A stretch of DNA of 64,000 nucleotides, taken from an uncultured Candidatus Peribacteria bacterium. Lineage in GTDB: Bacteria > Patescibacteriota > Gracilibacteria > UBA1369. Numbering within the stretch: the first letter of the stretch is position 1; every line of letters starts with the position of its first letter. The stretch lies in assembly GCA_964424075.1 (NCBI GenBank), contig CAYRGY010000003.1, forward strand, positions 42,985 to 106,984, in the 5' to 3' direction. The position numbers and the translations under genes were made by a program. Positions 10,873 through 31,291 of this stretch are shown one piece after another. The notes beneath the pieces are model-generated. The model did not search any database. It was not told where the DNA came from and saw nothing but the letters and a program-made list of their open reading frames with translations.

Positions 10873-11032
10873 ATTTATTTTTATTAGATTATATTTCCAT
10901 TGTAACGGATTTTAAGGAAATTAAAATTGAATTTTGTCATACAGAAATCCACAGATATGTTTGACTAAAATATGCCACTCTGTTTGAATAAAAAAAACAT
11001 ACCAACCCTTTAGACGTCCATTTTAGAATACG

Positions 11033-11566
11033 ATGAGCTTGAAATACAAATTACCAGGAGATACTTATCCTCCTTTGCCAACCAAACCCTGCTTGTTTGA
11101 ATCAGGAATTTATAATCAACAAGACGACTCAACACTACTACATAAACCTCAAAATGTTTTGATAGTAGATGATGATCGAATCTATGCCAAAACTCTTAAA
11201 AGAAGATTGCAAAAAATTGCCAATAATCATGTCATAGCCACAGGAAATGCTGATACTGCTTTGTCTGTACTCCCCAATATCAGCCCCGGCTCCACAATAA
11301 TTCTGGACTTACAAATGCCAGATATTGATGGAATCTCTTTGGCTGATATGATAAATGACCAAAGACGCAAAATGGGGCATCTGTTAATCCTGCACAGTGC
11401 AGCGATAGAAATTAATCAATCTGACTTAACCGCATTAAACATTTCTCCTAATTTAATTGAAACATTAATCCGCCAAAAAATTATTGATGCTTTCATTCCC
11501 AAACAAAATTCTTATCCCAAATTGGAAGAATTCATACTTTCACGTTACAACAAAAAAGCCTCCTGA
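11033..11566 (+). CDS. stand-alone response regulator receiver-domain protein
   Basis: 177-aa ORF. Receiver signatures are present: VLIVDDD, the phospho-acceptor context IILDLQMPDIDG and a downstream IPK lysine. No output domain is present, and a ~40-aa N-terminal extension precedes the receiver. Confidence 0.7.
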   Translation: MSLKYKLPGDTYPPLPTKPCLFESGIYNQQDDSTLLHKPQNVLIVDDDRIYAKTLKRRLQKIANNHVIATGNADTALSVLPNISPGSTIILDLQMPDIDGISLADMINDQRRKMGHLLILHSAAIEINQSDLTALNISPNLIETLIRQKIIDAFIPKQNSYPKLEEFILSRYNKKAS

Positions 11567-11582
11567 CTCAGGAGGCTTTTTT
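11552..11582. terminator. bidirectional Rho-independent terminator between the convergent receiver and phosphoketolase genes
   Basis: AAAAAAGCCTCCTGACTCAGGAGGCTTTTTT is a perfect GC-rich palindrome flanked by an A-tract and a T-tract. It overlaps the receiver gene's stop codon. Confidence 0.8.
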
Positions 11583-11595
11583 AATTGACTGCAAA

Positions 11596-14208: not shown

Positions 14209-14892
14209 TTATTTTTGGGTTATCAAATTTATTAATAAATTTTTATTTTTTTCTAATTGATTTAAAAGATCATTATAATCCTCGACCAGCATAACAGCTC
14301 CAGCCTCAATTAACAACTCCGGAGCAGTTGTAGTCTTGAGTCCTATACACTTAAGACCTGCTGATGTAGCACTTCTTACTCCCGCAACTGAATCTTCAAA
14401 CACTACAACTTCAGCGAGCCCTAATGACATTCTCTTTAAGATTTCTAGATAGACATCCGGAGCAGGCTTATTATTTTTAACTTCATGAGCAGAAATATAT
14501 TTTTCAATTTTTCCCTTAATGCCAGAAAAATCTAGAATCTTCTCCATCGTCACCAAAGTGGCACCTGAAGCAACTCCCAAACGCCAGCCTTGCCCCTCAA
14601 CATAATCAATAAATTTTTCAATACCTGGCACAGTTTCCACCCCATCCTGCTCATCAATCACTTCCAATAAATATCTATTCTTTTTCTCTAAACAAGATTC
14701 ATAGTCATATTGCTCCTGACCCAGCACGCCCTCCATAATTGCTTTGGCGCCCTGACCAACATACTTTTCAAAATATTCTTCCAATGAAACGGACTTTCCA
14801 AACTCATGAAAAAGCCTATCATAAGCAAGTGCATGCAAATGATTGCTACGAGTTATGGTCCCGTCCATATCCAGTATAATGGCTTTTAGCAT
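14209..14892 (-). CDS. HAD-IA family hydrolase (beta-phosphoglucomutase-like)
   Basis: 227-aa ORF with HAD motif I (ILDMDGT) and motifs III/IV near the C-terminus. Its stop codon abuts the xfp start codon. Confidence 0.8.
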   Translation of the reverse strand: MLKAIILDMDGTITRSNHLHALAYDRLFHEFGKSVSLEEYFEKYVGQGAKAIMEGVLGQEQYDYESCLEKKNRYLLEVIDEQDGVETVPGIEKFIDYVEGQGWRLGVASGATLVTMEKILDFSGIKGKIEKYISAHEVKNNKPAPDVYLEILKRMSLGLAEVVVFEDSVAGVRSATSAGLKCIGLKTTTAPELLIEAGAVMLVEDYNDLLNQLEKNKNLLINLITQK

Positions 14893-18903: not shown

Positions 18904-18932
18904 TTGTTTTTAGCGCTTTTTTCTGGTATAAT
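18904..18932 (+). promoter_or_regulatory. extended -10 sigma70-type promoter for the 193-aa/pilT/pilin-like operon
   Basis: TTGTTT, a 17-nt spacer ending in TGG, then TATAAT, located 30 nt upstream of the ATG at 18962. Confidence 0.5.
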
Positions 18933-18961
18933 TTAGAAAACAAATACATAAAAATTTAAAA

Positions 18962-19543
18962 ATGTCTCAATCATCAAAAATTGCCCTCCTCAAAGAGATA
19001 CTGGAAAGCGCAGAAGCCTCAATTCGCTCAGCTAAAAACATGCTTAATGAATTGATCAGCGGAAAAGATTCAGGGCCGACCAAAATGGAACAAATGGCCG
19101 AGAAAGTCGGCACACATACAAACACTGGTAAACAGCATATAATCGAAGGTGTCTTTGATGGTCAAAATATGGTCGGACCGGATAAAAAGGTTTATTCTGT
19201 CCCGGCTAACTACGCTTCCAAATCCAAGCTAATTCAAGGCGACGTCCTAAAACTAACCATCACTGAAGACGGCACCTTTCTTTATAAACAAATCGGACCT
19301 GTACAAAGACAAAAAATTGTTGGTGTCCTCACCTATGACGATGGTCAGTATCGTGTAATTGCCAAAGGAAAATCCTTTAAAGTCCTGCTGGCCTCAGTCA
19401 CATACTTTAAAGCTGAAATTGGCGATAGAGTGACAATCATTGTGCCTGAACTGGAAGAAAGTGAATGGGCGGCTATTGAAAATGTGCTTCCCAAGGTAGA
19501 TGGAGATGAAGAATTTCCAGAGGATGAGTTTAGCGAAAGCTAA
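18962..19543 (+). CDS. hypothetical protein (N-terminal helix plus two beta-rich modules), first gene of the pilT operon
   Basis: 193-aa ORF with no recognised family. It has repeated GD-x-(L/V)-x-(L/I) beta-strand motifs (GDVLKLTITEDG and GDRVTIIVPE) and an acidic C-terminus. Confidence 0.6.
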   Translation: MSQSSKIALLKEILESAEASIRSAKNMLNELISGKDSGPTKMEQMAEKVGTHTNTGKQHIIEGVFDGQNMVGPDKKVYSVPANYASKSKLIQGDVLKLTITEDGTFLYKQIGPVQRQKIVGVLTYDDGQYRVIAKGKSFKVLLASVTYFKAEIGDRVTIIVPELEESEWAAIENVLPKVDGDEEFPEDEFSES

Positions 19544-19588
19544 AAATATTCTCCTCAAATCAAAAATCAAAAAATAAAAAACAAAACA

Positions 19589-20641
19589 ATGGCTCAACTA
19601 GATAAAATCTTCCGCACTGCGGTTCAATATAAAGCGTCGGATGTATACATAACCACCGGCTCCAAACCAATTCTTCGTATTAATGGTGACTTAGTCGCTA
19701 TTGAAGAACATGAAATTCTCAACAAAAAAGTAGCTGAAGACTATATTTTGGAAATTCTCAATGACCATCAAAAAGAAGAATTTGCCAATAAGCTGGAACT
19801 AGACATTTCCTACGAATCATCCGGCATCGCCCGATTTCGTGTCAATATCTTCGTTCAACGTAAAGGAATTGCAGCAGCATTCCGTGTTATCCCCGAACAA
19901 GTTATCACTCTTGATGAACTGGGCCTTCCCGAACAGCTCAAAAGAATTTGTAAACAAGCAAATGGACTTGTTCTAGTCACAGGTTCCACCGGTTCAGGTA
20001 AATCAACCACAATGGCAGCCATGATCAACGAAGTAAACGAGAATTCCGCCGAACACATCATTACCATTGAAGATCCGATTGAGTACATTCATGAAAATAA
20101 AAAATCAATAATTGAACAACGTGAAGTTGGATCCCACACACTTGGCTTCACTCCGGCACTACGTTCAGCACTTCGTGAAGACCCGGACGTCATTCTGGTC
20201 GGTGAAATGCGTGACCTGGAAACTATTCAACTTGCCTTAACAGCAGCTGAAACAGGACATTTAGTCTTTGGAACATTGCATACCAACGGCGCAGCCAAAT
20301 CCATCGACCGTATCATTGATGCTTTTCCAACTAATCAGCAAAACCAAATCCGTATGCAGCTTTCTGAAAGTCTCCAAGCTGTCGTATGGCAAACTTTGAT
20401 GAAAACCAAAGATAAAGGAGGTCGTGTCGCCGCTCTGGAAATCATGCTTAATAACAACGCTGTAGCCAATATGATTCGTAAAAACAAAACTCATCAACTC
20501 GGATCAGCAATTGAAACAGGTTATCGTGAAGGCATGCAAACCATGAAACGCTCCATTACTGACTTACTTGAAGCTGGCATCATCGACGAAGAAACCGCGC
20601 TCGCTCATATCCCTGAAGAAATCGAAAATGTTGTGGAATAA
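19589..20641 (+). CDS. pilT: type IV pilus retraction ATPase PilT
   Basis: 350-aa ORF with Walker A (GSTGSGKSTT), the Asp/His boxes, and the C-terminal PilT-specific motif AVANMIRKNKTHQL followed by GMQTM. Confidence 0.9.
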   Translation: MAQLDKIFRTAVQYKASDVYITTGSKPILRINGDLVAIEEHEILNKKVAEDYILEILNDHQKEEFANKLELDISYESSGIARFRVNIFVQRKGIAAAFRVIPEQVITLDELGLPEQLKRICKQANGLVLVTGSTGSGKSTTMAAMINEVNENSAEHIITIEDPIEYIHENKKSIIEQREVGSHTLGFTPALRSALREDPDVILVGEMRDLETIQLALTAAETGHLVFGTLHTNGAAKSIDRIIDAFPTNQQNQIRMQLSESLQAVVWQTLMKTKDKGGRVAALEIMLNNNAVANMIRKNKTHQLGSAIETGYREGMQTMKRSITDLLEAGIIDEETALAHIPEEIENVVE

Positions 20642-21209
20642 ACTAAAACGAGGGGTTGGTGTTTTGCTAGTATTACTAACAATTTTTAGTGTTTCAGATA
20701 TCGTTTTGGCACAAAAGGGAGAGCGGTCATTACAAGATGAACTTGCTACCTATAAATCTGACGATACTGGACAATCCCCAGAAAAAATCGAAAATGACCT
20801 TGAATCCCAAGGAGGAATTGATGAAATGTTGGAAACAGCGGAAAGCGAAGCCGCAGCATTAAGTTCAGCCTCTATTAATGAAGTTGAAAGCTACGAGTCT
20901 ACAAAATTTCCTGTTAATCCACTTCTAAACTACTCGGGGTCGCAAGGTACTCAAAAATCCGAATACTTAGAAGAAAATAAAAATCCCATCGGCGCATTTG
21001 TAGTCCAGATAATCAACTTTTTGACACTTACTTCAGCATCACTCAGTTTCTTAATTGTCATTATAGGCGGCTTCATGATTATGACAGCTACAGGTAATGA
21101 AACTCAAATGAACAAGGGAAAAGAGGTTGTAATGTATGCAATCATTGGCCTCGTAATCAGTCTTTCTGCATTTTTCATAGTTGCCTTCGTTCAAAGCCTC
21201 TTTTTCTAA
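20628..21209 (+). CDS. VirB2/TrbC-like (T4SS-pilin-type) membrane protein, paralog 1
   Basis: The preferred start is the ATG at 20628 (MLWNKLKRGVGVLLVLL signal peptide). The ORF track's start at 20568 would overlap pilT by 74 nt. The C-terminus is a two-helix hairpin (IIGGFMIMTATGNETQMNKGKEVVMYAIIGLVISL). It overlaps the pilT stop by 14 nt. Confidence 0.65.
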   Translation: MLWNKLKRGVGVLLVLLTIFSVSDIVLAQKGERSLQDELATYKSDDTGQSPEKIENDLESQGGIDEMLETAESEAAALSSASINEVESYESTKFPVNPLLNYSGSQGTQKSEYLEENKNPIGAFVVQIINFLTLTSASLSFLIVIIGGFMIMTATGNETQMNKGKEVVMYAIIGLVISLSAFFIVAFVQSLFF

Positions 21210-21210
21210 T

Positions 21211-21909
21211 ATGTTTTTAAAAAGACTTCTACAATTTGTATTAATAACAATAGCTCTAAGCATTATACCTCAATCTGTGAATGCTCAAGATGGGGTTATT
21301 TCTTGCATTCTTCTGAATAACCAAGACTTTGCCGCCGTAGGTTTAGAAGACGTCAAAGAAGAATTGGAAAAAAAATTGATAGTAATAACAGAGGAGGCGA
21401 TCGGCCCTGAAATTAACGATTTTAGTAAGCGTTGTGCAAGAAACATTACTTGTGTGCAGTATAAGAAAAGATCACCTGGTGATGGGGGTCAAAACACCAA
21501 CACTCCATCAGAAATAAAAAAAACTTGCTATACTGAATATGCTGAAACCTGCCCAGCTACAACCAGTCTCACACAAGATCGTATTAATAATCTTGGAACA
21601 GATTATGATTTACAGGGCGAGCCTACAGTCACTTGCGAATTTGTAACAGCTTATGTTGCCAACTCTGGTGCCGATCTTCTCTACCGATTTATCGGCCTAA
21701 TTTACCAATACATGGCCATACTAAGTGGTGTAATTGGCACTTTCACCTTGGTTTTGGGTGGCGTTATGATCACAACAGCCGGTAGCAGCACCGAGCAAGT
21801 CAATAAAGCCCGCGATCTGATCACCAGGTCACTAATTGGATTAACAGTACTGCTTTTATCAGCGCTTATTCTATACGCCATTAATCCTAACTTTTTCATC
21901 ATCACCTAA
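21211..21909 (+). CDS. VirB2/TrbC-like membrane protein, paralog 2 (Cys-rich ectodomain)
   Basis: ATG at 21211, 1 nt after the paralog 1 stop. It has a signal peptide ending VNAQ, 8 Cys in the middle region, and the C-terminal hairpin VLGGVMITTAGSSTEQVNKARDLITRSLIGLTVLL. Confidence 0.65.
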   Translation: MFLKRLLQFVLITIALSIIPQSVNAQDGVISCILLNNQDFAAVGLEDVKEELEKKLIVITEEAIGPEINDFSKRCARNITCVQYKKRSPGDGGQNTNTPSEIKKTCYTEYAETCPATTSLTQDRINNLGTDYDLQGEPTVTCEFVTAYVANSGADLLYRFIGLIYQYMAILSGVIGTFTLVLGGVMITTAGSSTEQVNKARDLITRSLIGLTVLLLSALILYAINPNFFIIT

Positions 21910-21910
21910 A

Positions 21911-22348
21911 ATGAAAAAAATTATCTTCACCATCATTGTCATTTCACTGCTTGCCCAATCATTTATTGAAGATACTGACATAGTCAGAATTGCAACATCA
22001 GGGACTGCTGCTGCAGCTCAACTTGCTCAAGCAGAAGGTGTAACCGTCACCCGCCCTCCGATTTATTCCGAAAAATATGGTGACTTGAAATTACCTTACA
22101 GCGAAACTGCCAGTGGCGAATATCTTCAACAAAGCCTACTCCCCAACATCACTAGCATTATAGTCAGTGTCACCGGTGGCATCTCACTAGTATTTGTTAT
22201 TATCGGGGGCATCATGTTGCTAACATCTTACGGGGATCCAGACAAAGCAAAAAAAGGGCAAGCAACCGTCATGTACGCTTTGGTTGGGATTGTGCTTTCT
22301 GTGCTTTCCTATGCAATTGTTGCTATAATTTCATCTATCAATGTTTAA
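21911..22348 (+). CDS. VirB2/TrbC-like membrane protein, paralog 3
   Basis: 145-aa ORF with a signal peptide and the hairpin IIGGIMLLTSYGDPDKAKKGQATVMYALVGIVLSV. There is a 1-nt gap after paralog 2. Confidence 0.7.
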   Translation: MKKIIFTIIVISLLAQSFIEDTDIVRIATSGTAAAAQLAQAEGVTVTRPPIYSEKYGDLKLPYSETASGEYLQQSLLPNITSIIVSVTGGISLVFVIIGGIMLLTSYGDPDKAKKGQATVMYALVGIVLSVLSYAIVAIISSINV

Positions 22349-22787
22349 GAAAATTATAAAACTAGCTCTGCTGATATCACTGACTTTTACACTTTTCATT
22401 CCATTAGCCTTAGCTGAGAACGGAGATGAGCCCTCAACTAAAACCACAGTCTCATCTCAAGAACTTTTTGACCGCTTTCAAACGAAAGATGGTACTGCAC
22501 CACCCAAAACAGCTGCTGTTGCTGCCCTTCCTAATTCATCTTGGCAAGCAACACTAGCTAGTATAGTAGTCATGTTGCTCAACATTACCGGCGCTTTGGC
22601 ACTGATTTCTTTTACTGTCGGTGGTGTAATGATGGTAGTGGGAGGTCAAAATCCGGACATGCTGGAAAAAGGTAAAAAAATTGTCATGTATTCACTGATC
22701 GGCCTGGTGATTATTGCTGCATCTTATGCTATCGTGCTTGGAGTTTCTCAACTTGAATTCTTTACTACTTCAGTACCAAATGAATAA
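22341..22787 (+). CDS. VirB2/TrbC-like membrane protein, paralog 4
   Basis: 148-aa ORF with a signal peptide ending LALA and the hairpin TVGGVMMVVGGQNPDMLEKGKKIVMYSLIGLVIIA. It overlaps paralog 3 by 8 nt. Confidence 0.7.
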   Translation: MFKKIIKLALLISLTFTLFIPLALAENGDEPSTKTTVSSQELFDRFQTKDGTAPPKTAAVAALPNSSWQATLASIVVMLLNITGALALISFTVGGVMMVVGGQNPDMLEKGKKIVMYSLIGLVIIAASYAIVLGVSQLEFFTTSVPNE

Positions 22788-23217
22788 ACTAAAAACCATC
22801 ATCCTATCTGCATTCCTGCTTCTAATTCCACTCAGCTGTTTTGCCCAAATCGAATTGGATAATAAATTTAAACCTGATTATGCACCGACAGTGCTTATTT
22901 CCGATAAAACAAAAGATAATCCGGCCAATTTTGGTACTGCTGTTTTGCAAACCATCGCTGGGGGTCTGCTATATCTCGCCGCTCCTGTAGCTGTTATCAT
23001 AATCGCCATTGCCGGCCTGATTTACACTGTTTCCCACGGTGATCAAGCCATGATGGATAAAGCTAAAAACACTCTCTTTCGAGCAATTATGGGGCTTTTG
23101 ATTATCATCTTCTCCTGGATCATTATCCGCGCTGTAGTCGACCTAATGTTGGCCACCGACACCGGCGATGCCACTCCACCTGCGGCCGAAGAACAAGCTA
23201 CTGGAGATGGTGGTTAA
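22780..23217 (+). CDS. VirB2/TrbC-like membrane protein, paralog 5 (divergent)
   Basis: The preferred start is the ATG at 22780 (MNKLKTIILSAFLLLIPLSCFAQ); the track start is 22714. It has the hairpin IAIAGLIYTVSHGDQAMMDKAKNTLFRAIMGLLIII and an acidic, Pro-rich tail. It overlaps paralog 4 by 8 nt. Confidence 0.6.
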   Translation: MNKLKTIILSAFLLLIPLSCFAQIELDNKFKPDYAPTVLISDKTKDNPANFGTAVLQTIAGGLLYLAAPVAVIIIAIAGLIYTVSHGDQAMMDKAKNTLFRAIMGLLIIIFSWIIIRAVVDLMLATDTGDATPPAAEEQATGDGG

Positions 23218-23234: not shown

Positions 23235-24716
23235 CTAACTTTCAATCCTGGGAAACAAAATTTCCGGTTTCAGCACTTCACCGCCTTCTTGAAGTCCTCC
23301 CCAATTCAAATTATTCCATTCCTCCTCAACATTAAGCGCTTTAAGCATCTTTCCAGCTGAATCCGGAATCACCGGTAATAGCATCAAAGCCAAATGGCGA
23401 ATCACTTCCAACAAATTATATAGCACTGCCTTCAGCGCTTCCTGATCAGTTTTCGCCAATTCCCAAGGCTTCTTATCTTCAATATACTTGTTAGCTCCAC
23501 AACCTAAATCAATCACAATTTCCATCGCCTTTTTAAAATTAAAATCCTCAAAAGCCTGATGATAGTTTTTCCAACCGTTTTCAATCGCTACTTGCCAACC
23601 ATCATCTTCACCAGGCGCAGAAACTTTTCCCTCAAAATATTTAGCGGTCATGCACGCAACCCGACTAATCAAATTACCGAAAATATTGGCCAACTCTTCA
23701 GTATAAACTATATCAAATCTAGATTGGCTAAAATCTCCATCTCCCAAAGTCGGTATTTCACTAATTAAAAAGAAACGCAGCGCATCCTTCCCATATTTCT
23801 GTATATAGAAAAACGGGTCCTTTACATTACCCAGCGACTTACTCATTTTCTGCCCTTCGGAAGATATAAAACCATGAACCATAATCGTCTTTGGCAACTC
23901 ATATCCTGCCGAAAGCAACATCCCAATCCAATAAATCGCATGAAATTTATGAATATCCTTACCAATCACATGCACATCTGCCGGCCAATAACGATCTCGA
24001 TCCACACCTGACATATAATTTGGCAGTGCATCTACCCAGACATACATCAATTGATCTTCATGCCCGGGCACAGGCACACCCCATTTATAACTCTCTTTAG
24101 AACGTGAAACACTAATATCCTCAATATCTTTAAGCATATTCAAAACCTCTTTTTTTCGAAATTCCGGCACCACCTTAACAGTGTCAGATTGAATCAAATC
24201 ACGAATTTGCTCCCTATATTTCTTCAGTTTAAAAAAGAAGTTCTTCTCGGAGACCTCTTCCGGTTCCCGATTAGGATGAATAGGACACTTACCGTCAATC
24301 AATTCCTTTTTGGTAACAAATTTCTCACATCCAACACAATACAGGCCTTTATATTCAGCCTCATACAAGTCTTCTTTATGTTTCAAGCGATCCCATAAAA
24401 CTCGCACAAATTCCTCATGCTTATCGCTAGTCGTTCTAATAAAATCATCATTGCTCGCTCCGATTTCAGTGGCAAAACGCTCAAACTCAGCCGCATTCTT
24501 GTCACAAAGCTCCTGCGGTGTTAACCCTTGTTCATCTGCAGCTTCGGCAATTTTCACGCCATGCTCATCAGTTCCAGTTAAAAAAAAGGTATTATCCCCA
24601 TTCAAGCGATGATAGCGCGCCAGAACATCCCCCTGTAACATTTCCATCGCAAATCCCACATGCGGTACTGAGTTTACGTATGGTATCGAAGTTGTAACGT
24701 AGAATTTTTTAGACAT
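23235..24716 (-). CDS. metG: methionyl-tRNA synthetase
   Basis: 493-aa ORF with the class I motifs PHVGFA (HIGH-like) and KMSKSLGN, and a CxxC...CP zinc knuckle. Confidence 0.95.
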   Translation of the reverse strand: MSKKFYVTTSIPYVNSVPHVGFAMEMLQGDVLARYHRLNGDNTFFLTGTDEHGVKIAEAADEQGLTPQELCDKNAAEFERFATEIGASNDDFIRTTSDKHEEFVRVLWDRLKHKEDLYEAEYKGLYCVGCEKFVTKKELIDGKCPIHPNREPEEVSEKNFFFKLKKYREQIRDLIQSDTVKVVPEFRKKEVLNMLKDIEDISVSRSKESYKWGVPVPGHEDQLMYVWVDALPNYMSGVDRDRYWPADVHVIGKDIHKFHAIYWIGMLLSAGYELPKTIMVHGFISSEGQKMSKSLGNVKDPFFYIQKYGKDALRFFLISEIPTLGDGDFSQSRFDIVYTEELANIFGNLISRVACMTAKYFEGKVSAPGEDDGWQVAIENGWKNYHQAFEDFNFKKAMEIVIDLGCGANKYIEDKKPWELAKTDQEALKAVLYNLLEVIRHLALMLLPVIPDSAGKMLKALNVEEEWNNLNWGGLQEGGEVLKPEILFPRIES

Positions 24717-25221: not shown

Positions 25222-26460
25222 TTACCCACTCTTAGTCTTATACAGAGAAAAATTGAAAACCGGCAAAAAGCTCGGCGCCTTATACTTCACATCCAAACTC
25301 TTCACCACCTGCCCGCCCCGCGCATTACCATTCGCCTTAATCTCCGCAAAATCCTTCACCATATCTTCTTTCGCAATCACCCGATAATAAATATCCGCAT
25401 TCCTCAACTTAAACGGCTGCCGCAGCGGGTCCTGAATGCCCACCAACTGCGGATTGACCATATTGGTCAGGACGAGATAATTGTTATTGTGAGAGCTCAT
25501 AAACGTTGCCATAGAACACTCAAATCCAGGTCCGTTCTCTTCAATGCCTTTAATCTCAACTCCCCCCGTCACCACTTTACCCGCATCAGCCATATAACAC
25601 TCTCTAGCCCCGGAAACTGTTGGATTTGCTCCATTTTCATTTATTTTTATAGCCGGTGCTGTACATCTCCCCAGTTCAAGAGGTTCCTTTTTAAGTCCTA
25701 CATCTGAACCAATACAGAATGGATTTAATTCATCCGCTCTCTCTGATACAGGGTAAAAATCCGATATCGACTCGGTTTTTCCATTATCGCCTTCTGGATT
25801 ACCATAGAGTTTCCATCTTAGAATATCAAAATCAGAAACTTTCAAGTTGCTTAACAAACTGGAATCCTCCAATTCTAACTTATTTTTAAAATAGGGTACA
25901 AAATACTGCACATTAAAATCATTCACATCAACTACCTCCCCATTCTTTCCATAACTATGCAAAGTGATAATATGCGTTTCACTCAGTCCCAAACGCCGAT
26001 AAGTACACTCAGGTCTTTTTCCATACAAGCTTTGCTTTGAATATGGAATAGCAAATGGATCTAGTGCATTGGATATTACACAACGCTCTCCAGCCAATAT
26101 TGATACATAAATAGGCTGATCTTCAGGAAAATACGGGATCATATCAGTTTGATTGGATATGTCGTATTGATAGTCAAATCCCGAATCTTTCAACGACAAT
26201 TCTGAGTAGTAATCAGGCAATTCCGCCCCCTCCTCGTCTTTCGGCTCATACCCGGGAGGATTCATAGACATAGTCAAAAGCGCGTCTTCGACAGCAGCCT
26301 CAGCTGCATAGAAAGCCTTATTGGAATCGACCACCGACTGCGTCAGCGATATTTCCCGAATCACCAAATTGCTGATCCCGACAACAAAAATCATTAACAC
26401 CCCCATCAAAAGCAGTGTCACCAGCAAAGCGGTCCCAGATTGTTTTCCATGTTTAATCAA
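25222..26460 (-). CDS. PilX/GspK-like minor pilin-like protein (large, putative tip subunit)
   Basis: 412-aa ORF. The N-terminus MIKHGKQSGTALLVTLLLMGVLMIFVV lacks Glu5, and ...AFYAAEAAVEDAL is typical of PilX/GspK N-terminal domains. It is the last gene of the pilus operon. Confidence 0.6.
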   Translation of the reverse strand: MIKHGKQSGTALLVTLLLMGVLMIFVVGISNLVIREISLTQSVVDSNKAFYAAEAAVEDALLTMSMNPPGYEPKDEEGAELPDYYSELSLKDSGFDYQYDISNQTDMIPYFPEDQPIYVSILAGERCVISNALDPFAIPYSKQSLYGKRPECTYRRLGLSETHIITLHSYGKNGEVVDVNDFNVQYFVPYFKNKLELEDSSLLSNLKVSDFDILRWKLYGNPEGDNGKTESISDFYPVSERADELNPFCIGSDVGLKKEPLELGRCTAPAIKINENGANPTVSGARECYMADAGKVVTGGVEIKGIEENGPGFECSMATFMSSHNNNYLVLTNMVNPQLVGIQDPLRQPFKLRNADIYYRVIAKEDMVKDFAEIKANGNARGGQVVKSLDVKYKAPSFLPVFNFSLYKTKSG

Positions 26461-27136
26461 AGCTACGCGAGGTTAAAAGTGTTTGAAAATCAATACTGAT
26501 CTGCCGCGGATCATCTTCTTGCAAATCCGCCCTTTGCACCGAAATATTCATCCAGACTGCCGACTGAGTCTGTGTCTCAAACTTATTCAAATCGAATTCT
26601 TTAGTTGGAAACTTCTCAAAACTCAAATCCGTCACTTGCAGTTTTTTAAATTTGTAGGGGATGAAACCATCAGATTTGTTGCTCCATTGACCAGTATCAT
26701 TATCCTGTTCCTCAGCGAATCTCTGGATTTTAACCGCATCATCATACTTTATAATTATGCTTGCTGTCTCATCCTTGGAAACAATCATTAAGTTGTCTGG
26801 CCCTAGAATTTCTAATGAGTCATCACAACGAGTTCGCCAATTAAAATCATTTTCTTTCACTGAAGCATCAGACCAACGACCAGTCTGTAGAACTGCATCT
26901 TTCCAAAAATAACAATCCTGATCCACCTTGCCATTGCGCATCTCGGCATTTACGAAATCCACAAAATCCCTTAGCTCTGAATACATCAAGCGCATTTCAT
27001 TGGCTTCGCGCTGAGCTCGTACAATGGTGACATAGGAATTGGTCGCCACAATCAAGATAATCATAAAAACCATAATCGCCACCAGCAGCTCCAGCAAAGT
27101 AAATCCTTTCTGATTTTTCTTAAAACAATTTTTCAT
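26453..27136 (-). CDS. prepilin-type N-terminal cleavage/methylation domain protein (PilW/GspJ-like minor pilin)
   Basis: 227-aa ORF with the class III signal MKNCFKKNQKG/FTLLELLVAIMVF. Confidence 0.7.
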   Translation of the reverse strand: MKNCFKKNQKGFTLLELLVAIMVFMIILIVATNSYVTIVRAQREANEMRLMYSELRDFVDFVNAEMRNGKVDQDCYFWKDAVLQTGRWSDASVKENDFNWRTRCDDSLEILGPDNLMIVSKDETASIIIKYDDAVKIQRFAEEQDNDTGQWSNKSDGFIPYKFKKLQVTDLSFEKFPTKEFDLNKFETQTQSAVWMNISVQRADLQEDDPRQISIDFQTLLTSRSFD

Positions 27137-27780
27137 TATGATTTCCAGTCAGTTAATTCGGTCGTCAAAACCACCCGCTTGGGGCTATCCGCATTCCCCC
27201 ACTCCACCACCGATTCAATCAATAGTTTATTTACTTCTGAACCTTGATCTCCCCTATTTGAATCTTGCTTAATCGGAGTCACCTTTATGTAGCGACTGAA
27301 TTTTGTTTCTATAATAAAATTACTCGTATCATTCTGAGAGTATTGATTGCCATCATTCTTGAAGATGCGATTACTCGTTGTATCTCCTTCCTTCCATTCC
27401 TCAAGCTTCAGTGGAAAACACTCACCTAGATTATCATCACATGGAACTGGATTTTTCACCCTCTGTAACAAAAATAACTTCGACTCGTCTTGATCATCAT
27501 CATAAATTTTTTCCCCCCAAGGCTTACGTTCATTTCCATCATCACTAACCCAACCATCCAACCCAATCCCCAATTCCCAATTGGTATCACGAATATAGCG
27601 CATGGCTTCAATGCCTTCCTGCGCCAGACCATAGGCAACAATTCGATCTACGTTGTCAGCATTGGAGCGCATCACCGAAACAACCACCGACGTTGCGGCC
27701 GCGATTACAGTCACTAAAATCCCGATGGAAACAATCACTTCCGGCAGTGTAAAACCTTTCTGGGCGCGCCTCTTTTTCAC
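27136..27780 (-). CDS. prepilin-type N-terminal cleavage/methylation domain protein (PilV/GspI-like minor pilin)
   Basis: 214-aa ORF with the class III signal MKKRRAQKG/FTLPEVIVSIGIL. It has a TAATG overlap with the next gene. Confidence 0.7.
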   Translation of the reverse strand: MKKRRAQKGFTLPEVIVSIGILVTVIAAATSVVVSVMRSNADNVDRIVAYGLAQEGIEAMRYIRDTNWELGIGLDGWVSDDGNERKPWGEKIYDDDQDESKLFLLQRVKNPVPCDDNLGECFPLKLEEWKEGDTTSNRIFKNDGNQYSQNDTSNFIIETKFSRYIKVTPIKQDSNRGDQGSEVNKLLIESVVEWGNADSPKRVVLTTELTDWKS

Positions 27781-27841
27781 TTCAAAATAAAGTTATAATT
27801 TATCTAAGTATTATAACAGATTTTAGGCTTATAATAAAGCT

Positions 27842-28468
27842 CTACTCTTTATAAACATCACCGGTCGCCGTGCTATAAATTACTGTCCTTTGATCTTCAA
27901 TTGAGTCATCCTGATAAGTAATTGTAATCACATATTCTTCATCTAGTGCTTGATTTAAAGAATCAAACACCTTCCCAAAAGGAGGTTTAAAAGCCAAAAC
28001 CAGCTCAGAAACTGAATTCCTATTTCCATTAATCCCCAACTTAAAAGTTTCACTCAGCAATTCCCGCTCGCGCCATTTATTTACACCAACATCCTCACAA
28101 AAATCCGCCTTTTGATCTTTCACCCCAATATAGTCAGTCTCAGCGGTACTAACGCTATCCGTATCAATTGATAGCCAAAAACACTTGGTCACGTCGCTTT
28201 TTGTTTGCTCACCTGACCGAGCCAAAATCGCCTGCTCCTTGATCAAGGAAACCAGAGTGTCAGCGGCAAAATTCAGGCGGGCCCGGCGAATCACTCCGCC
28301 ATAACTGCCAACAGCAATCAGCGTTAATATCATCACAATTGCCAGGACTATCATTAATTCAACTAAAGTGAAACCAAAACGGCGATTATCTGAAGTACTG
28401 GCACTGAAAAAACGTCTGGACCACCCTTTTCTCGCTCCCCGACTTCTTTTGAATAACCACCACAACAT
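27842..28468 (-). CDS. prepilin-type protein (FimU/GspH-like) with an unusually long basic leader
   Basis: 208-aa ORF with ...DNRRFG/FTLVELMIVLAIVMILTLIAVGSYGGVIRRARL. The leader before the G/F site is 32 aa, and no later in-frame start is available. Confidence 0.7.
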   Translation of the reverse strand: MLWWLFKRSRGARKGWSRRFFSASTSDNRRFGFTLVELMIVLAIVMILTLIAVGSYGGVIRRARLNFAADTLVSLIKEQAILARSGEQTKSDVTKCFWLSIDTDSVSTAETDYIGVKDQKADFCEDVGVNKWRERELLSETFKLGINGNRNSVSELVLAFKPPFGKVFDSLNQALDEEYVITITYQDDSIEDQRTVIYSTATGDVYKE

Positions 28469-28478
28469 AGACTAAATC

Positions 28479-29675
28479 TTAAGCGACTACAGAAGAAAGC
28501 TGAAATACCGGCATCAAAATTGCCAAAGCCAATAAAGCAACCAAAATTCCAATAGTCAGAATCATAATCGGCTCAAAAAGTCCGGTAACGCGCTTCAAAG
28601 TATGATCAATTTCCTGATCATAATGGGCAGAAATCTTCATAGCAATTTTGTTGATAGACGCAGTTTTTTCACCTACGCTCATCATTCTGGTAACAGTATC
28701 GTCGAATAAAAATGGCGTATCTTTCAATGAATCGGAAATCTTTTCACCATTTTTGACCCTACTTATAACTTCCCAGGTCTTGAGGGCATAAACTCCGGAA
28801 CTCATACTTGTCGCGACAATCTCCAGCGCCTTGATTACCGGCAAGCCGGATTCAAGTAGCAGTCCTAGCGTCGAAACAAAGCGCAAAACATACACTTTAC
28901 GCACCATTTCGCCAACAACGGGAATATTCATTTTGAAAAGATCCCATGAATAACGACCTTCTTCTGTATTTTTCCAATAAGACCAGGCAAAATAAACAAT
29001 TGCACCAATCGCCACAACCAGCCACCACCAATTTAACATAAAATTAGAAACTCCAATTAAAATCTTGGTCATTAAAGGAAAATCTTCTTCCTGTAATCCG
29101 CCTTCAGTCAACAGATTCATTAATTCAGGGATAACAAATATTAGCATTCCGGCAGAAACTAACAGCATCACCACAATTACAAATATCGGGTAAATTGAAG
29201 CTGTCACTAATTTAATCTGTAATTCATTAGCTTTATCCAAATCCTCAGCCAATTTCATCAACATTTGATCCAGATTTCCGGCGGCTTCTCCGGATTTAAT
29301 CACACCAATTTCCTTTTCTTTAAACACATTCGGAAAACGAGAAATAGCCTTGGAAAGGGAAATACCTTGGCGTAAATTATATTCAATTGTGTCTAAAATT
29401 CTGCTTAAACGTTCATTTTTTTGTTGATTGGCCAAAGTTTCAATCGATTCAATCATCGACATACCGGAATCGATCATTACCGCCAATAGATGAAAAAAGT
29501 AAGCCTTATCTTTTAAAGAAATAGGCGTATTGTCTATGAAAAAATCATTCAGCCTGGTAAATAAAGGCTTTCCTCGATTGTCATAAATTCCATACACAAC
29601 TTTCTCCCTGGTCTGACCGCGTTTTTGACCTAAAAGTTTCTCTAATTTTGATTGTTCGTTAGATTTGTGTGGCAT
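28479..29675 (-). CDS. pilC: type IV pilus platform protein PilC (GspF family)
   Basis: 398-aa ORF with two T2SS-F repeats and three TM segments in the typical layout. Confidence 0.9.
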   Translation of the reverse strand: MPHKSNEQSKLEKLLGQKRGQTREKVVYGIYDNRGKPLFTRLNDFFIDNTPISLKDKAYFFHLLAVMIDSGMSMIESIETLANQQKNERLSRILDTIEYNLRQGISLSKAISRFPNVFKEKEIGVIKSGEAAGNLDQMLMKLAEDLDKANELQIKLVTASIYPIFVIVVMLLVSAGMLIFVIPELMNLLTEGGLQEEDFPLMTKILIGVSNFMLNWWWLVVAIGAIVYFAWSYWKNTEEGRYSWDLFKMNIPVVGEMVRKVYVLRFVSTLGLLLESGLPVIKALEIVATSMSSGVYALKTWEVISRVKNGEKISDSLKDTPFLFDDTVTRMMSVGEKTASINKIAMKISAHYDQEIDHTLKRVTGLFEPIMILTIGILVALLALAILMPVFQLSSVVA

Positions 29676-29684
29676 ACCAAAAGA

Positions 29685-30230
29685 TTAAATACCTTCTTGG
29701 AAATATGTTTCCATTGAAAGATTAAAGTTTATACGCTCAATTCCTTCCACTTCGCCATATTGTACAGTAATAGAATTCACTACTAGTTTACGAGTATTTG
29801 TTTCGATATCAGCAAGAAAAGTTAACAAGTCCTGCTTTTCAGCCGATAGCGAAAGATTCACCGTTGAGGTCTTTATTCCATCTTGAGAATTAATTGGAAT
29901 CCCGAAACTGACACTATTAATTGTCACCTGATGATCATCGGCAATTTCATAGAGTTGTTTAATCAATTCATCTTGTTCCATTCTTAAGGGAATGGTGTCC
30001 AGCACTCTGGATCTTTGAATTTCAGTAGCTCCGCTTAAATCACCTTCAGCCCCTTTCAATTCATTCAATCGCTCTTGCAAATCTGTCTTTTCTGCTATAC
30101 GAGCATTCAAATCCTCTCTTTCACTACTGATCTCTCCTTGCACCGGCATAGTCCAACCGAAAAGCACAGCCAGGAGAATTACTGTCAGGACCAGATTAAT
30201 CAACGCATTTTTTCTTTTATTATTATCCAT
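29685..30230 (-). CDS. PilO-like pilus assembly protein
   Basis: 181-aa ORF with a short cytoplasmic N-terminus, one TM, a coiled coil and a small alpha/beta domain. Its position between the PilN-like gene and pilC supports the call. Confidence 0.5.
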   Translation of the reverse strand: MDNNKRKNALINLVLTVILLAVLFGWTMPVQGEISSEREDLNARIAEKTDLQERLNELKGAEGDLSGATEIQRSRVLDTIPLRMEQDELIKQLYEIADDHQVTINSVSFGIPINSQDGIKTSTVNLSLSAEKQDLLTFLADIETNTRKLVVNSITVQYGEVEGIERINFNLSMETYFQEGI

Positions 30231-30238
30231 GTTTAGAA

Positions 30239-30916
30239 TTAATTATTTTGTACTTTAACTCTAGGAGCTGGCGCATCTTCTCCCGATGCTCCTACAGAAG
30301 CCGTATTACCTAATTCCGGCTCATCATATGTCAAATTAAAAACGAAAGACATTAGCTCTCTTCCTGACTCATCAACTCCGGTAGATAATGAAGGAATATA
30401 GGCATCTTTGAATAACACACTATTATTAAAGTCTGATAATAAACGGGCAACATCCACATAGGGAGGACTGACTTTAGCCAATGTAGAAACACTCAAAGCA
30501 ATTCTACCTTCAGCTGAACCACTATAAGAAAGTACAACTATTGACGGTTGTCCATTAGGCTCTTTAGGAATTAAATTATCTACCGCTTTAATAATGGCGG
30601 ACCATTTAAGCTCTTCCGCTTCAATTACTTTGAGAGCGGTCAATGCATCGGCGCTGGCTCCTACCTTATCGCCTTCATAAGCCGAAATTTCATTTTTCAA
30701 CTCTGCAATTTCATCCGCGACCTGACTTTGTTTATCCAAAACCCCTCCTTTACTAAATACCAAATAAATGGTAACTAACACTAGAACTATCAGTGCTGCT
30801 CCGAGAATTTTAGTTATCAGCATACTTTTATTAGCCAATTTCTTGGTCACAGTCTGCTTTTCCTCACCTTCATCAGGCTTGAAATGATGAGGAGGATGGT
30901 GTAACTGCTGTTCCAT
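30239..30916 (-). CDS. PilN-like pilus assembly protein
   Basis: The preferred start is the ATG at 30916 (MEQQLHHPP...). The longer track ORF reaching 31132 would overlap the plus-strand RNHCP gene and the promoter. The protein has one TM (ILGAALIVLVLVTIYLVF), a coiled coil and a C-terminal domain. Confidence 0.5.
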   Translation of the reverse strand: MEQQLHHPPHHFKPDEGEEKQTVTKKLANKSMLITKILGAALIVLVLVTIYLVFSKGGVLDKQSQVADEIAELKNEISAYEGDKVGASADALTALKVIEAEELKWSAIIKAVDNLIPKEPNGQPSIVVLSYSGSAEGRIALSVSTLAKVSPPYVDVARLLSDFNNSVLFKDAYIPSLSTGVDESGRELMSFVFNLTYDEPELGNTASVGASGEDAPAPRVKVQNN

Positions 30917-30944
30917 ATTGCAATCATTAAAATTTAATCTTAAT

Positions 30945-30973
30945 ATTTTACCATATTTACTCCCCTTTTTCAA
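30945..30973 (-). promoter_or_regulatory. extended -10 sigma70-type promoter for the pilus operon
   Basis: On the minus strand: TTGAAA, a 17-nt spacer ending in TGG, then TAAAAT, 29 nt upstream of the ATG at 30916. The -35 element abuts the divergent RNHCP start codon. Confidence 0.5.
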
Positions 30974-31291
30974 ATGGCTCAGCCCGTCAAAATCAATCAG
31001 GAGTTCGAATGTCAGCAATGTGGACATCTGGTACCACCTGCTGATCGGACTTGCCGCAATCACTGCACCAAATGTCTCTATTCTCTGCACGTCGATCAAA
31101 CAGTTCCCGGCGACCGCGCATCCACTTGCCACGGACTAATGGAACCAATCGCCATTGAATATTCAGGTAAAAAAGGTTATCAAATTATTCACCGCTGCAT
31201 TAAATGCCAGCATCAACAAATCAACAAAAGTGCCCAAGATGATGACTTGGAGGCAATACTCCAAATAATGCATAAATCTCAATTAAGCTAA
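30974..31291 (+). CDS. RNHCP domain zinc-ribbon protein
   Basis: 105-aa ORF with CQQCGH...CRNHCTKCLYSLHVD...CIKC, the RNHCP signature. It has a TAATG junction with tilS. Confidence 0.7.
   Translation: MAQPVKINQEFECQQCGHLVPPADRTCRNHCTKCLYSLHVDQTVPGDRASTCHGLMEPIAIEYSGKKGYQIIHRCIKCQHQQINKSAQDDDLEAILQIMHKSQLS

What the first reader, a model, noticed from the sequence alone, without database searches (positions are those of the whole stretch)
18904..23217. PilT retraction ATPase translationally coupled to five tandem VirB2/TrbC-like pilin paralogs: a locus not assignable to a described pilus or secretion system
Seen in the sequence: one near-consensus extended -10 promoter (18904-18932) precedes seven same-strand genes. 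The junctions are 45, -14, 1, 1, -8 and -8 nt. The genes are a 193-aa unknown, a bona fide PilT (Walker A GSTGSGKSTT and the PilT-specific C-terminal AVANMIRKNKTHQL), and five ORFs of 193, 232, 145, 148 and 145 aa. Each of the five has a Sec-type signal peptide, a non-conserved middle region and a conserved C-terminal hydrophobic helix-loop-helix with a short basic loop (for example IIGGFMIMTATGNETQMNKGKEVVMYAIIGLVISL). None of them carries a prepilin G/FTLxE site.

Established knowledge: that hairpin design is the VirB2/TrbC (type IV secretion pilin) architecture, which is normally assembled by VirB4/VirB6/VirB11 machinery. PilT is the type IV pilus retraction motor and belongs to the same secretion-ATPase superfamily as VirB11.

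Inference: no VirB4, VirB6 or VirD4 gene lies in these 64 kb, yet a T4P motor gene overlaps the first T4SS-type pilin gene. This could be a hybrid retractile filament or a membrane platform used for host contact or DNA uptake by a reduced-genome symbiont. I cannot map it onto a described system.
Basis: partly seen in the sequence, partly recalled or inferred. Interest (0 to 1): 0.78.

Follow-up and report, generated by a model that had tools for sequence, protein, structure and literature searches.

The report
Patescibacterial VirB2-like pilin array beside pilT
The five small genes after pilT are a conserved set of conjugation-type (VirB2-like) pilins already described in ultra-small Patescibacteria; here they share an operon with an ordinary type IV pilus retraction motor, whose own pilus genes lie next door.

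Summary
In detail: the promoter, seven same-strand genes, junctions of 45/-14/1/1/-8/-8 nt, a true PilT, and five Sec-signal plus C-terminal hairpin proteins with no prepilin motif.

The "unassignable" interpretation does not hold.
- All five match Pfam PF18895 (T4SS_pilin), four of them above the curated cut-off.
- All 108 orthologues in relatives match PF18895, and 16 also match TrbC/VirB2.
- Tandem arrays of 2-11 divergent VirB2-like pilins are published for Patescibacteria. About 42% of pilin-carrying, VirB4-positive assemblies have no pilin gene near virB4.
- The window is Peribacteria-like (CPR).
- A type IV pilus cluster (PilX-like, three GFTLxE pseudopilins, PilC, PilO) lies 2 kb downstream, giving PilT its usual partners.

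New detail:
- The five paralogues are ancient, with strict 1:1 orthologues in the same order in 23/23 related loci.
- pilT lies upstream in 18/18 loci. It abuts the array in only 5. Elsewhere there is a spacer or inserted genes, and usually a separate TGGTATAAT promoter.
- Arrays in other lineages have no PilT nearby.

I could not test whether this genome has VirB4.

Verdict: a new member of a known kind, with a lineage-specific context. Interest is low to moderate.

The parts
18905..18932 (+). Promoter: weak -35 (TTGTTT, 18905-18910), 17-nt spacer counted to the TATAAT hexamer, and a perfect extended -10 (TGGTATAAT, 18924-18932)
   Evidence: Sequence and TGnTATAAT scan. TATAAT or TGnTATAAT is conserved upstream of the orthologous gene in 8 of 10 relatives. 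Not listed by the consensus scanner because the -35 matches only 3 of 6 positions.
18962..19543 (+). Conserved 193-aa cytoplasmic protein of unknown function. Predicted N-terminal long helix plus two OB/S1-like beta-barrels. First gene of the operon.
   Evidence: No Pfam or NCBIfam hit. At least 8,000 homologues, 64-81% identical in the top 120. AF2 pLDDT 79. Best Foldseek hit is RNase R, E 9e-4. Directly upstream of pilT in most relatives; in L002 two genes intervene.
19589..20641 (+). pilT, the type IVa pilus retraction ATPase
   Evidence: T2SSE 1.9e-49. TIGR01420 468.7 bits against a cut-off of 319; VirB11 60 bits against 250; DotB 167 against 463. Motifs confirmed. 68-81% identical to Peribacteria-like relatives and about 55% to non-CPR PilT.
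20628..21209 (+). p1: VirB2-like T4SS_pilin paralogue 1 (193 aa); its start overlaps the pilT stop by 14 nt
   Evidence: PF18895 at 6.7e-5, 23.3 bits, just below the gathering score of 26.6. Signal segment plus two transmembrane segments. Same-position orthologue in 23/23 loci.
21211..21909 (+). p2: T4SS_pilin paralogue 2 (232 aa) with a 6-Cys N-terminal ectodomain
   Evidence: PF18895 27.0 bits, above the gathering score. Cysteine count and transmembrane segments. Orthologues.
21911..22348 (+). p3: T4SS_pilin paralogue 3 (145 aa)
   Evidence: PF18895 27.9 bits.
22341..22787 (+). p4: T4SS_pilin paralogue 4 (148 aa)
   Evidence: PF18895 34.3 bits. The AF2 model has a hairpin of helices 68-103 and 105-142 with pLDDT 83-95. 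Orthologues.
22780..23217 (+). p5: T4SS_pilin paralogue 5 (145 aa), last gene of the unit, convergent with metG
   Evidence: PF18895 29.9 bits and TrbC/VirB2 PF04956 at 6.2e-4.
23235..24716 (-). metG (methionyl-tRNA synthetase). Convergent boundary gene and part of the conserved syntenic block.
   Evidence: Pfam tRNA-synt_1g at 9e-97. Conserved directly downstream of p5, or one gene further in L129, in relatives whose contig extends that far.
25222..31132 (-). Type IV pilus gene cluster, the likely working partners of PilT: PilX_N-like protein (25222-26460), three GFTLxE pseudopilins (26453-27136, 27136-27780, 27842-28468), PilC (28479-29675), PilO (29685-30230) and a 297-aa single-transmembrane unknown (30239-31132)
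   Evidence: Pfam PilX_N (0.0026, 18.1 bits, below the 25.5-bit cut-off), N_methyl three times, T2SSF, PilO. Prepilin motifs. The cluster is conserved in relatives.

Best explanation
The window comes from a Peribacteria-like member of the Patescibacteria (CPR).

Genes p1-p5 are a fixed, ancient set of five VirB2/TrbC-like pilins of the patescibacterial T4SS_pilin family (PF18895). Each is exported by Sec and its signal peptide is cleaved by signal peptidase I. Each then sits in the membrane as a two-helix hairpin joined by a short Lys-containing loop, with a variable N-terminal ectodomain facing outward. By analogy with other Patescibacteria, they are then drawn into a conjugative-type filament or surface structure by a VirB4-based, Gram-positive-like type IV secretion system encoded elsewhere in the genome.

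PilT is the ordinary retraction ATPase of the type IV pilus, whose other genes lie 2-10 kb downstream.

In this genome the pilin array has no promoter of its own. It is read through from the extended -10 promoter at 18924, together with the 193-aa OB-fold protein and pilT. The two host-contact machines are therefore co-expressed but mechanically separate.

Shown: family membership, topology, orthology, synteny and promoter layout. Inferred: assembly by a T4SS elsewhere, filament formation, and co-transcription.
For: Family:
- All five match PF18895, four above the gathering score.
- In relatives 108/108 orthologues match PF18895 (best 2e-13) and 16/108 match TrbC/VirB2 (best 7.5e-7). No other family is hit by more than 2 members.

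Topology:
- A signal-like segment plus two transmembrane segments.
- The AF2 model shows a helical hairpin with pLDDT 83-95.
- A Gly in helix 1 (98%) and a Lys in the loop (93%) are almost invariant.
- The five are not T4P substrates: none has a GFTLxE motif, whereas the neighbouring pseudopilins do.

Known kind:
- Published arrays of divergent VirB2-like pilins in Patescibacteria are often not near virB4. In class Gracilibacteria the T4SS parts are dispersed (PMC12102498).
- The Southlakia pilin array is essential (PMC10633639 and PMC12857230).

PilT and its partners:
- PilT scores above the TIGR01420 cut-off and far below the VirB11, DotB and TraJ cut-offs.
- A T4P cluster is adjacent.

Separability:
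- In 13 of 18 loci pilT and p1 are 190-1,774 nt apart. Opposite-strand genes intervene in L001, L081 and L084/L085.
- A TGGTATAAT-type box lies just upstream of p1 in about 15 of 17 non-abutting loci and in none of the 5 abutting loci.
- Arrays in about 8 other lineages (13 loci) have no PilT or prepilin gene within the retrieved flanks of up to 10 kb.
Against: - No VirB4, VirB6 or VirD4 was found in the 64-kb window, nor in about 6.5 kb of sequence that appears to continue past its right end on a second assembly (L131) carrying an identical protein. I could not search the rest of the genome or any Peribacteria genome for VirB4, so the proposed assembly machine is inferred from the literature on other classes.
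- pilT lies upstream of the array in 18 of 18 related loci. A single-gene NJ tree places the abutting arrangement in the three earliest branches, so the tight junction may be ancestral.
- The structural search gave no significant VirB2 match. The best conjugation-pilus hit is 8dfu at E 1.2.
- The published explanation for such arrays (antigenic or host-range variation) fits poorly with the strict 1:1 conservation of five distinct paralogues.
Confidence: 0.6

Rival explanations
1. PilT, or the type IV pilus machine as a whole, works directly with the VirB2-like proteins. In this hybrid-filament reading, PilT acts as a VirB11-like ATPase that powers assembly or retraction of a VirB2-type filament in a lineage whose Gram-positive-type T4SS has no VirB11.
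For: - pilT is upstream of the array, on the same strand and within 1.8 kb, in 18/18 lineage loci. The array is flanked on the other side by the T4P cluster.
- The abutting state is probably ancestral.
- PilT and VirB11 belong to one ATPase superfamily (established knowledge).
- VirB6 is undetectable in class Gracilibacteria, and T4SS parts are dispersed there (PMC12102498).
- VirB4 was not found in the window.
Against: - PilT is a canonical TIGR01420 member (468 bits) with a VirB11 score far below cut-off. Its usual partners are next door.
- The five proteins lack the prepilin-peptidase motif and the single N-terminal helix that T4P machinery handles (established T4P biology).
- A derived clade split the genes, inserted opposite-strand genes and gave the array its own promoter without losing either part.
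- FtsQ, DUF1290 and MetRS are equally conserved in the same block, so synteny here is not specific to function.
- Arrays in other lineages have no PilT nearby.
Confidence: 0.12
2. The five proteins do not form a filament. They are membrane-resident hairpin anchors that display five different ectodomains on the cell surface, or small integral subunits of a membrane complex, and share only the VirB2-like fold.
For: - The mature proteins carry long, poorly conserved N-terminal regions before the hairpin, roughly 40-140 residues; in p2 this region includes a 6-Cys domain. Classical mature VirB2 is about 70 residues (VirB2 size is established knowledge).
- Strict retention of five distinct paralogues in fixed order suggests non-redundant subunits rather than interchangeable major pilins.
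- No pilus has been imaged for this family. PMC12857230 speaks only of a 'potential to elaborate conjugative pili'.
- Foldseek cannot distinguish the hairpin from other helical hairpins.
Against: - There is direct profile similarity to TrbC/VirB2 in 16/108 orthologues.
- A conserved Gly in helix 1 and a basic loop residue are features of lipid-binding conjugative pilins (established from F- and T-pilus structures; an inference here).
- In Saccharibacteria the homologous arrays sit inside the T4SS cluster and are essential.
Confidence: 0.2
3. The adjacency is pure syntenic inertia in a slowly rearranging small genome and has no regulatory meaning. Co-transcription in this genome is an accident of intergenic loss.
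For: - The whole block FtsQ-DUF1290-unk193-PilT-(x)-p1..p5-MetRS-T4P is conserved, housekeeping genes included.
- The spacer is variable and tolerates inserted genes.
Against: - The abutting or overlapping junction is kept in three separate early branches.
- Both machines are surface, host-contact systems and both are essential in Southlakia, so co-expression is plausible.
Confidence: 0.08

Closest known systems
VirB2-like pilin arrays of the patescibacterial T4SS (Pfam PF18895 T4SS_pilin): Ca. Southlakia epibionticum ML1 (Wang et al. 2023, PMC10633639), the 'Sec-secreted array' of TM7x, and the survey by Quinonero-Coronel et al. 2025 (PMC12102498)
   Same: - Same Pfam family.
- Tandem array of sequence-divergent paralogues: 23-36% identical here, against a published mean of 25%.
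- Sec signal peptide followed by a hydrophobic hairpin.
- Chromosomal, with no relaxase context.
- Array size (5) lies within the published range of 2-11.
- A position away from virB4 is published as common.
   Different: - Here the array is fused to a pilT operon and lies between pilT and a T4P cluster, which none of the papers read here mention (full-text search for Patescibacteria + VirB2 + PilT).
- The five paralogues are 1:1 conserved in order across the lineage (23/23 loci). That argues for fixed, non-redundant roles rather than the proposed antigenic or host-range variation.
- The Southlakia array is inside the T4SS cluster, whereas no T4SS core gene is seen within 64 kb here.
Classical VirB2/TrbC conjugative pilins (Pfam PF04956; A. 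tumefaciens VirB2, RP4 TrbC)
   Same: - Signal peptide, two hydrophobic helices and a short basic loop.
- Weak but direct profile hits: p5 at 6e-4, and 16/108 orthologues with a best E-value of 7.5e-7.
   Different: - Scores are mostly below the PF04956 gathering cut-off.
- The mature proteins have roughly 40-140 extra N-terminal residues.
- The host is a monoderm.
- No adjacent VirB3, VirB4, VirB5, VirB6 or VirB11.
- Five co-conserved paralogues instead of one major pilin.
PilT/PilU type IVa pilus retraction ATPase (TIGR01420)
   Same: - Full-length match at 468.7 bits against a cut-off of 319.
- Walker A motif and an AIRNLIRE-like C-terminal motif.
- T4P genes (PilC, PilO, pseudopilins) lie nearby.
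   Different: - Nothing is unusual in the protein itself.
- Only its downstream neighbours are atypical.
Tandem VirB2 paralogues of Bartonella and Anaplasma T4SS (cited in PMC12102498)
   Same: Multiple divergent VirB2 copies in tandem in a host-dependent bacterium.
   Different: - Those are thought to provide antigenic or host-range variation and differ between strains.
- Here each of the five copies has a stable orthologue across the lineage.

Membership tests
Patescibacterial T4SS_pilin (PF18895) / VirB2-like pilin | Significant match to the family profile | tested here: met
   Four of five score above the gathering cut-off of 26.6 bits. p1 scores 23.3 bits, E 6.7e-5. All 108 lineage orthologues match at E<=0.01, best 2e-13.
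Patescibacterial T4SS_pilin (PF18895) / VirB2-like pilin | Cleavable Sec-type signal peptide followed by two hydrophobic helices joined by a short hydrophilic, basic loop | tested here: met
   Hydropathy shows one N-terminal and two C-terminal hydrophobic segments in all five. The AF2 hairpin spans residues 68-103 and 105-142 with pLDDT 83-95. The loop Lys is 93% conserved. Cleavage itself was not tested.
Patescibacterial T4SS_pilin (PF18895) / VirB2-like pilin | Occurs as a tandem array of divergent paralogues | tested here: met
   Five adjacent genes, 23-36% identical over the shared module. This matches the published description.
Patescibacterial T4SS_pilin (PF18895) / VirB2-like pilin | The genome encodes a VirB4-based T4SS (VirB4, VirB3/PrgI, TrsD, VirB6) | not testable with these tools
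   None is present in the 64-kb window or in about 6.5 kb that appears to continue past its right end on a second assembly, L131. The literature reports VirB4 in 2,417 of 3,035 assemblies.
Classical TrbC/VirB2 (PF04956) | Match above the Pfam gathering score | tested here: inconclusive
   p5 scores 20.4 bits against a cut-off of 27.9. 16/108 orthologues hit at E<=0.01, best 7.5e-7. A PDB profile search found no VirB2.
Classical TrbC/VirB2 (PF04956) | Fold match to solved conjugative pilins | tested here: inconclusive
   Foldseek gave no hit at E<0.8. The A. pernix conjugation pilus 8dfu ranked third (E 1.2, probability 0.72, TM 0.58). Helical hairpins are not discriminating.
Type IV pilin / pseudopilin (T4P substrate) | N-terminal prepilin-peptidase motif G-F/M-T/S-L-x-E (Pfam N_methyl) | tested here: not met
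   No N_methyl hit at E<=1 and no regex match in any of the five. The three neighbouring pseudopilins all match.
PilT/PilU retraction ATPase (TIGR01420) | Full-length match above the curated cut-off, Walker A, and the PilT C-terminal AIRNLIRE-type motif | tested here: met
   468.7 bits against a cut-off of 319.1, over residues 4-341. Motifs at residues 132 and 291.
VirB11 / DotB / TraJ (T4SS secretion ATPases) | Match above the family cut-off | tested here: not met
   VirB11 60.5 bits against 250; DotB 167.5 against 463; TraJ 168.7 against 368.

The most novel reading that the evidence does not exclude
In Peribacteria the five-member VirB2-like set may have become a dedicated partner of the type IV pilus system. 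PilT could act as a VirB11-like motor, or the hairpin proteins could form a membrane platform for the T4P. This would be a hybrid host-contact or DNA-uptake machine that needs no VirB4. My evidence does not exclude it: pilT-array linkage is lineage-wide and probably ancestral, the array lies between pilT and the T4P operon, no T4SS core gene was seen, and VirB4 status in the lineage is unknown.
Probability: 0.1. Interest if true: 0.8.

Novelty: new member of a known kind. Interest (0 to 1): 0.3.

Why it matters
T4SS and T4P are the two envelope machines shown to be essential for the epibiotic lifestyle of cultivated Patescibacteria. What the VirB2-like pilin arrays do is still unknown.

This locus adds two usable facts:
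- In the Peribacteria lineage the array is a fixed set of five non-interchangeable paralogues. That argues against simple antigenic variation.
- The array is co-expressed with, or at least permanently parked beside, the T4P retraction motor.

If complete Peribacteria genomes turn out to lack VirB4, these proteins would need a different assembly route. That would be a real surprise. Otherwise this is a lineage-specific gene-order detail of a described system.

Tried and rejected
1. Finding VirB4 in this genome or lineage.
- Two look-ups with the genes nearest the window ends failed, because no gene with exactly those products is on record. A third, with a left-end gene whose start is promoter-supported, also failed.
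- One look-up succeeded and showed about 6.5 kb beyond the right end: ribonucleotide reductase, a methyltransferase and ComEC, but no VirB4.
- The supplement of PMC12102498 as stored contains no Peribacteria rows.
- Full-text searches for Peregrinibacteria + VirB4 or 'type IV secretion' gave nothing usable.

2. Structural proof of a VirB2 fold.
- Foldseek against the PDB gave no significant hit.
- An HMM profile search of PDB sequences gave only designed coiled coils.

It was redone with p4 orthologues only.

4. VirB4 next to arrays of other lineages.
- Ten large flanking ORFs were SpoIID-like, SLT_3, DNA ligase, a solute-binding protein, DUF4012 or without any Pfam hit. None was VirB4.

5. 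Horizontal-transfer island: rejected. GC content (39-42%) and gene content are like the rest of the window.

6. The consensus promoter scanner neither found the claimed promoter nor exceeded its shuffled controls. The promoter call rests on the extended -10 box and its conserved spacing to the start codon instead.

Full report
OBSERVATION

- ORF listing gives a 193-aa ORF (18962-19543), pilT (19589-20641) and five ORFs at 20628-21209, 21211-21909, 21911-22348, 22341-22787 and 22780-23217.
- The junctions are 45, -14, 1, 1, -8 and -8 nt.
- Upstream lies a perfect extended -10 box, TGGTATAAT, at 18924-18932. Its -35 element (TTGTTT) is weak, which is why the consensus scanner did not list it.
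- The box ends 30 nt before the start codon. Five other TGnTATAAT boxes in the window keep the same 27-31 nt spacing to a start codon, so this looks like the organism's usual promoter type.
- PilT carries GSTGSGKSTT and AVANMIRKNKTHQL.
- Each of the five small proteins has an N-terminal signal-like hydrophobic segment and two C-terminal transmembrane segments. None has a prepilin G-F-T-L-x-E motif, whereas the three true pseudopilins 4-5 kb downstream do.

WHAT THE GENES ARE

The five small proteins:
- All five match Pfam PF18895, 'Type IV secretion system pilin'. Four score above the gathering cut-off. p5 also hits TrbC/VirB2 PF04956 at 6e-4.
- I collected orthologues from 22 related loci and scanned 108 proteins, the window's own five included. 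All 108 matched PF18895 (best 2e-13) and 16 matched TrbC/VirB2 (best 7.5e-7). No other family was hit by more than two.
- An AlphaFold model of p4 shows a signal helix, a poorly ordered middle region and a confident helix-loop-helix hairpin with pLDDT 83-95.
- Foldseek against the PDB gave no significant match. An archaeal conjugation pilus (8dfu) ranked third at E 1.2. The fold test is therefore consistent with VirB2 but not discriminating.
- A Gly in helix 1 (98%) and a Lys in the loop (93%) are almost invariant across the 108 sequences.

PilT and the first gene:
- PilT scores 468.7 bits on TIGR01420 (cut-off 319). It scores far below the cut-offs for VirB11, DotB and TraJ.
- The 193-aa first gene has no family match but is very conserved, with at least 8,000 homologues that are 64-81% identical among the top hits.
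- Its model shows a long helix followed by two OB/S1-like barrels. The best Foldseek hit is RNase R at E 9e-4.

SURROUNDINGS

The window is an ordinary chromosomal stretch of a CPR bacterium.
- Pfam annotation shows Dus, YgjP, FtsQ and DUF1290 upstream. MetRS lies convergent immediately downstream.
- A type IV pilus cluster follows on the minus strand: a weak PilX_N-like protein (below the Pfam cut-off), three N_methyl pseudopilins, PilC, PilO and a single-transmembrane unknown, at 25222-31132.
- The rest is housekeeping: glycolysis and pentose-phosphate enzymes, phosphoketolase, Pta-AckA, SecA, FtsK, FtsH, rnpA-yidC-jag and SLH-domain proteins.
- Among the ORFs of 110 aa or more that were scanned, none matched VirB4, VirB6, VirD4 or VirB11. 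None of the eight family-less ORFs checked is polytopic.
- About 6.5 kb that appears to continue past the right end, seen on a second assembly carrying an identical 543-aa protein, holds ribonucleotide reductase, a methyltransferase and ComEC.
- GC content is uniform.
- The closest PilT relatives are Candidatus Peribacteria MAGs at 73% and 68% identity. The next hits are non-CPR PilTs at about 55%.

COMPARATIVE EVIDENCE

Related loci came from the genome scan, exact-protein look-ups and a metagenome scan with p4 orthologues.

Within the Peribacteria-like lineage:
- The block FtsQ-DUF1290-unk193-PilT-(x)-p1-p2-p3-p4-p5-MetRS(-)-T4P cluster(-) is conserved.
- In 23 of 23 loci each pilin gene best matches the window paralogue at the same position, at roughly twice the score of the next paralogue. 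The five are therefore ancient, distinct and kept in fixed order.
- pilT is upstream on the same strand in 18 of 18 loci that reach that far, but the junction varies. It is -14 to +13 nt in 5 loci, 190-575 nt in 5, and 1.1-1.8 kb in 8. The large gaps hold inserted genes: an opposite-strand Na/Ca exchanger in L081 and L084/L085, and two genes, one on the opposite strand, in L001.
- Where pilT does not abut p1, a TGGTATAAT-type box lies just upstream of p1, or of its over-extended ORF call, in about 15 of 17 loci. About 0.2 would be expected by chance. None of the 5 abutting loci has such a box. The array is thus an independent transcription unit in most relatives and is read through from the pilT operon in the rest, this genome included.
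- A neighbour-joining PilT tree places the abutting state in the three earliest branches and the spaced state in one derived clade. This is a single gene without support values, so it is only a hint that the tight junction is ancestral.

Outside the lineage:
- Thirteen loci from about eight other lineages carry one to twelve PF18895 genes (mostly arrays of five to twelve). None has a PilT homologue or a prepilin-motif ORF within the retrieved flanks of up to 10 kb.
- Ten large flanking ORFs were SpoIID-like, SLT_3, DNA ligase, a solute-binding protein, DUF4012 or without any Pfam hit. None was VirB4.

LITERATURE
- Quinonero-Coronel et al. 2025 (PMC12102498) searched 3,035 Patescibacteria genomes with PF04956 and PF18895.
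  - VirB4 is present in 2,417 assemblies.
  - VirB2-like pilins occur in 1,948 VirB4-positive assemblies, but near virB4 in only 1,135.
  - There are 441 arrays of 2-11 pilin genes, with a mean of 25% identity within an array.
  - In class Gracilibacteria the T4SS parts are mostly not clustered with virB4, and VirB6 is undetectable.
- Wang et al. 2023 (PMC10633639) showed that a series of predicted pilins encoded inside the Southlakia T4SS cluster is essential. A 2025 T4SS review describes it as six VirB2-like pilins (PMC12857230).
- A full-text search for Patescibacteria + VirB2 + PilT found only a TM7x transcriptome paper that treats the two systems separately.

MECHANISM (best explanation, confidence about 0.6)
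- p1-p5 are Sec-exported VirB2-like hairpin pilins of the patescibacterial T4SS family.
- They are assembled by a VirB4-based machine encoded elsewhere. This step is inferred and was not tested.
- PilT serves the neighbouring T4P system.
- In this genome the two systems share one promoter, and therefore expression, but not mechanics.

Rivals:
- A true PilT/T4P-pilin hybrid (about 0.12). For: the lineage-wide, possibly ancestral linkage, and the absence of T4SS genes in view. Against: the canonical PilT, the missing prepilin motif, separability in a derived clade, and the equal conservation of unrelated housekeeping neighbours.
- Non-filament membrane anchors or complex subunits (about 0.2). 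For: the long variable ectodomains, and five non-redundant paralogues.
- Meaningless syntenic inertia (about 0.08).

NOVELTY AND SCORE
- The kind of element is published, so 'not assignable to a described system' is not supported.
- Three details appear to be new: the fixed five-paralogue set with 1:1 orthology, which fits poorly with the published antigenic-variation idea; its permanent position between pilT and the T4P operon in Peribacteria; and the alternation between operon fusion and an autonomous promoter.
- These are modest, lineage-specific findings. I classify this as a new member of a known kind, with interest 0.3.
- The reading that would raise interest is a VirB4-independent, T4P-linked use of VirB2-like proteins. 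I give it about 10%. A T4SS HMM scan of complete Peribacteria genomes, which I could not run, would settle it.

Noticed in passing
window 18962-19543 (+): The first gene of the operon is an uncharacterised but extremely conserved protein. It has at least 8,000 homologues, 64-81% identical among the top hits, and no Pfam or NCBIfam match. The model shows a long N-terminal helix plus two OB/S1-like barrels; the best PDB fold hit is RNase R at E 9e-4. It sits directly upstream of pilT in most of the related loci that reach that far; in L002 two genes intervene. It may be a nucleic-acid-binding partner of the pilus or competence system.
   Followed up: partly
window 3229(-), 18924(+), 27818(-), 36434(+), 48101(+), 60607(-): TGnTATAAT extended -10 boxes end 27-31 nt before start codons at six genes. 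This suggests a uniform promoter and short-leader architecture. The total count (10 on both strands) barely exceeds the chance expectation of about 6, so the signal is in the position of the boxes, not their number.
   Followed up: partly
window 22321-22329 (+): Another TGnTATAAT box lies inside the 3' end of p3, only 12 nt before the p4 start codon. That spacing is atypical. It could be a chance match or an internal promoter giving a near-leaderless p4-p5 transcript.
   Followed up: no
L108:597-2351(-) and 10233-14495(+); L112:3166-4932(-); L115:10971-13283(+): In other lineages PF18895 pilin arrays are flanked by SpoIID-like peptidoglycan-remodelling proteins. One locus has a 1,420-aa protein with an SLT_3 lysozyme-like domain (PF18896). 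This hints at a VirB1-like cell-wall-opening function travelling with the arrays rather than with virB4.
   Followed up: partly
L131:1328-2836 (roughly 6 kb beyond the window's right end, on a second assembly carrying an identical 543-aa protein): A ComEC homologue (DUF4131 + Competence domains) lies just outside the window, together with a ribonucleotide reductase large subunit. The DNA-uptake channel is thus roughly 45 kb from the pilT/T4P region.
   Followed up: no
window 53054-55186 (+): rnpA-yidC-jag, genes that usually lie near the replication origin, are about 30 kb from the pilin array. PMC12102498 reports that patescibacterial T4SS genes often lie near dnaA. No dnaA or GC-skew switch is seen in the window.
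   Followed up: no
window 55188-56228 (+) and 57857-58837 (-): Two SLH (S-layer homology) domain proteins are present, one of them fused to a DPBB lytic-transglycosylase-like domain. Next to them are three large secreted or single-transmembrane proteins with no family match, at 50757-52766, 58941-60572 and 60614-61921. These are possible S-layer or cell-surface proteins of this CPR organism.
   Followed up: no
L081:7360-8364(-), L084:6704-7714(-), L085:1209-2219(-): A Na/Ca exchanger gene is inserted on the opposite strand between pilT and p1. Gaps of similar size (about 1.1 kb) occur in three further members of the same derived clade (L090, L100, L106). It may be a useful synapomorphy for that clade.
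   Followed up: partly
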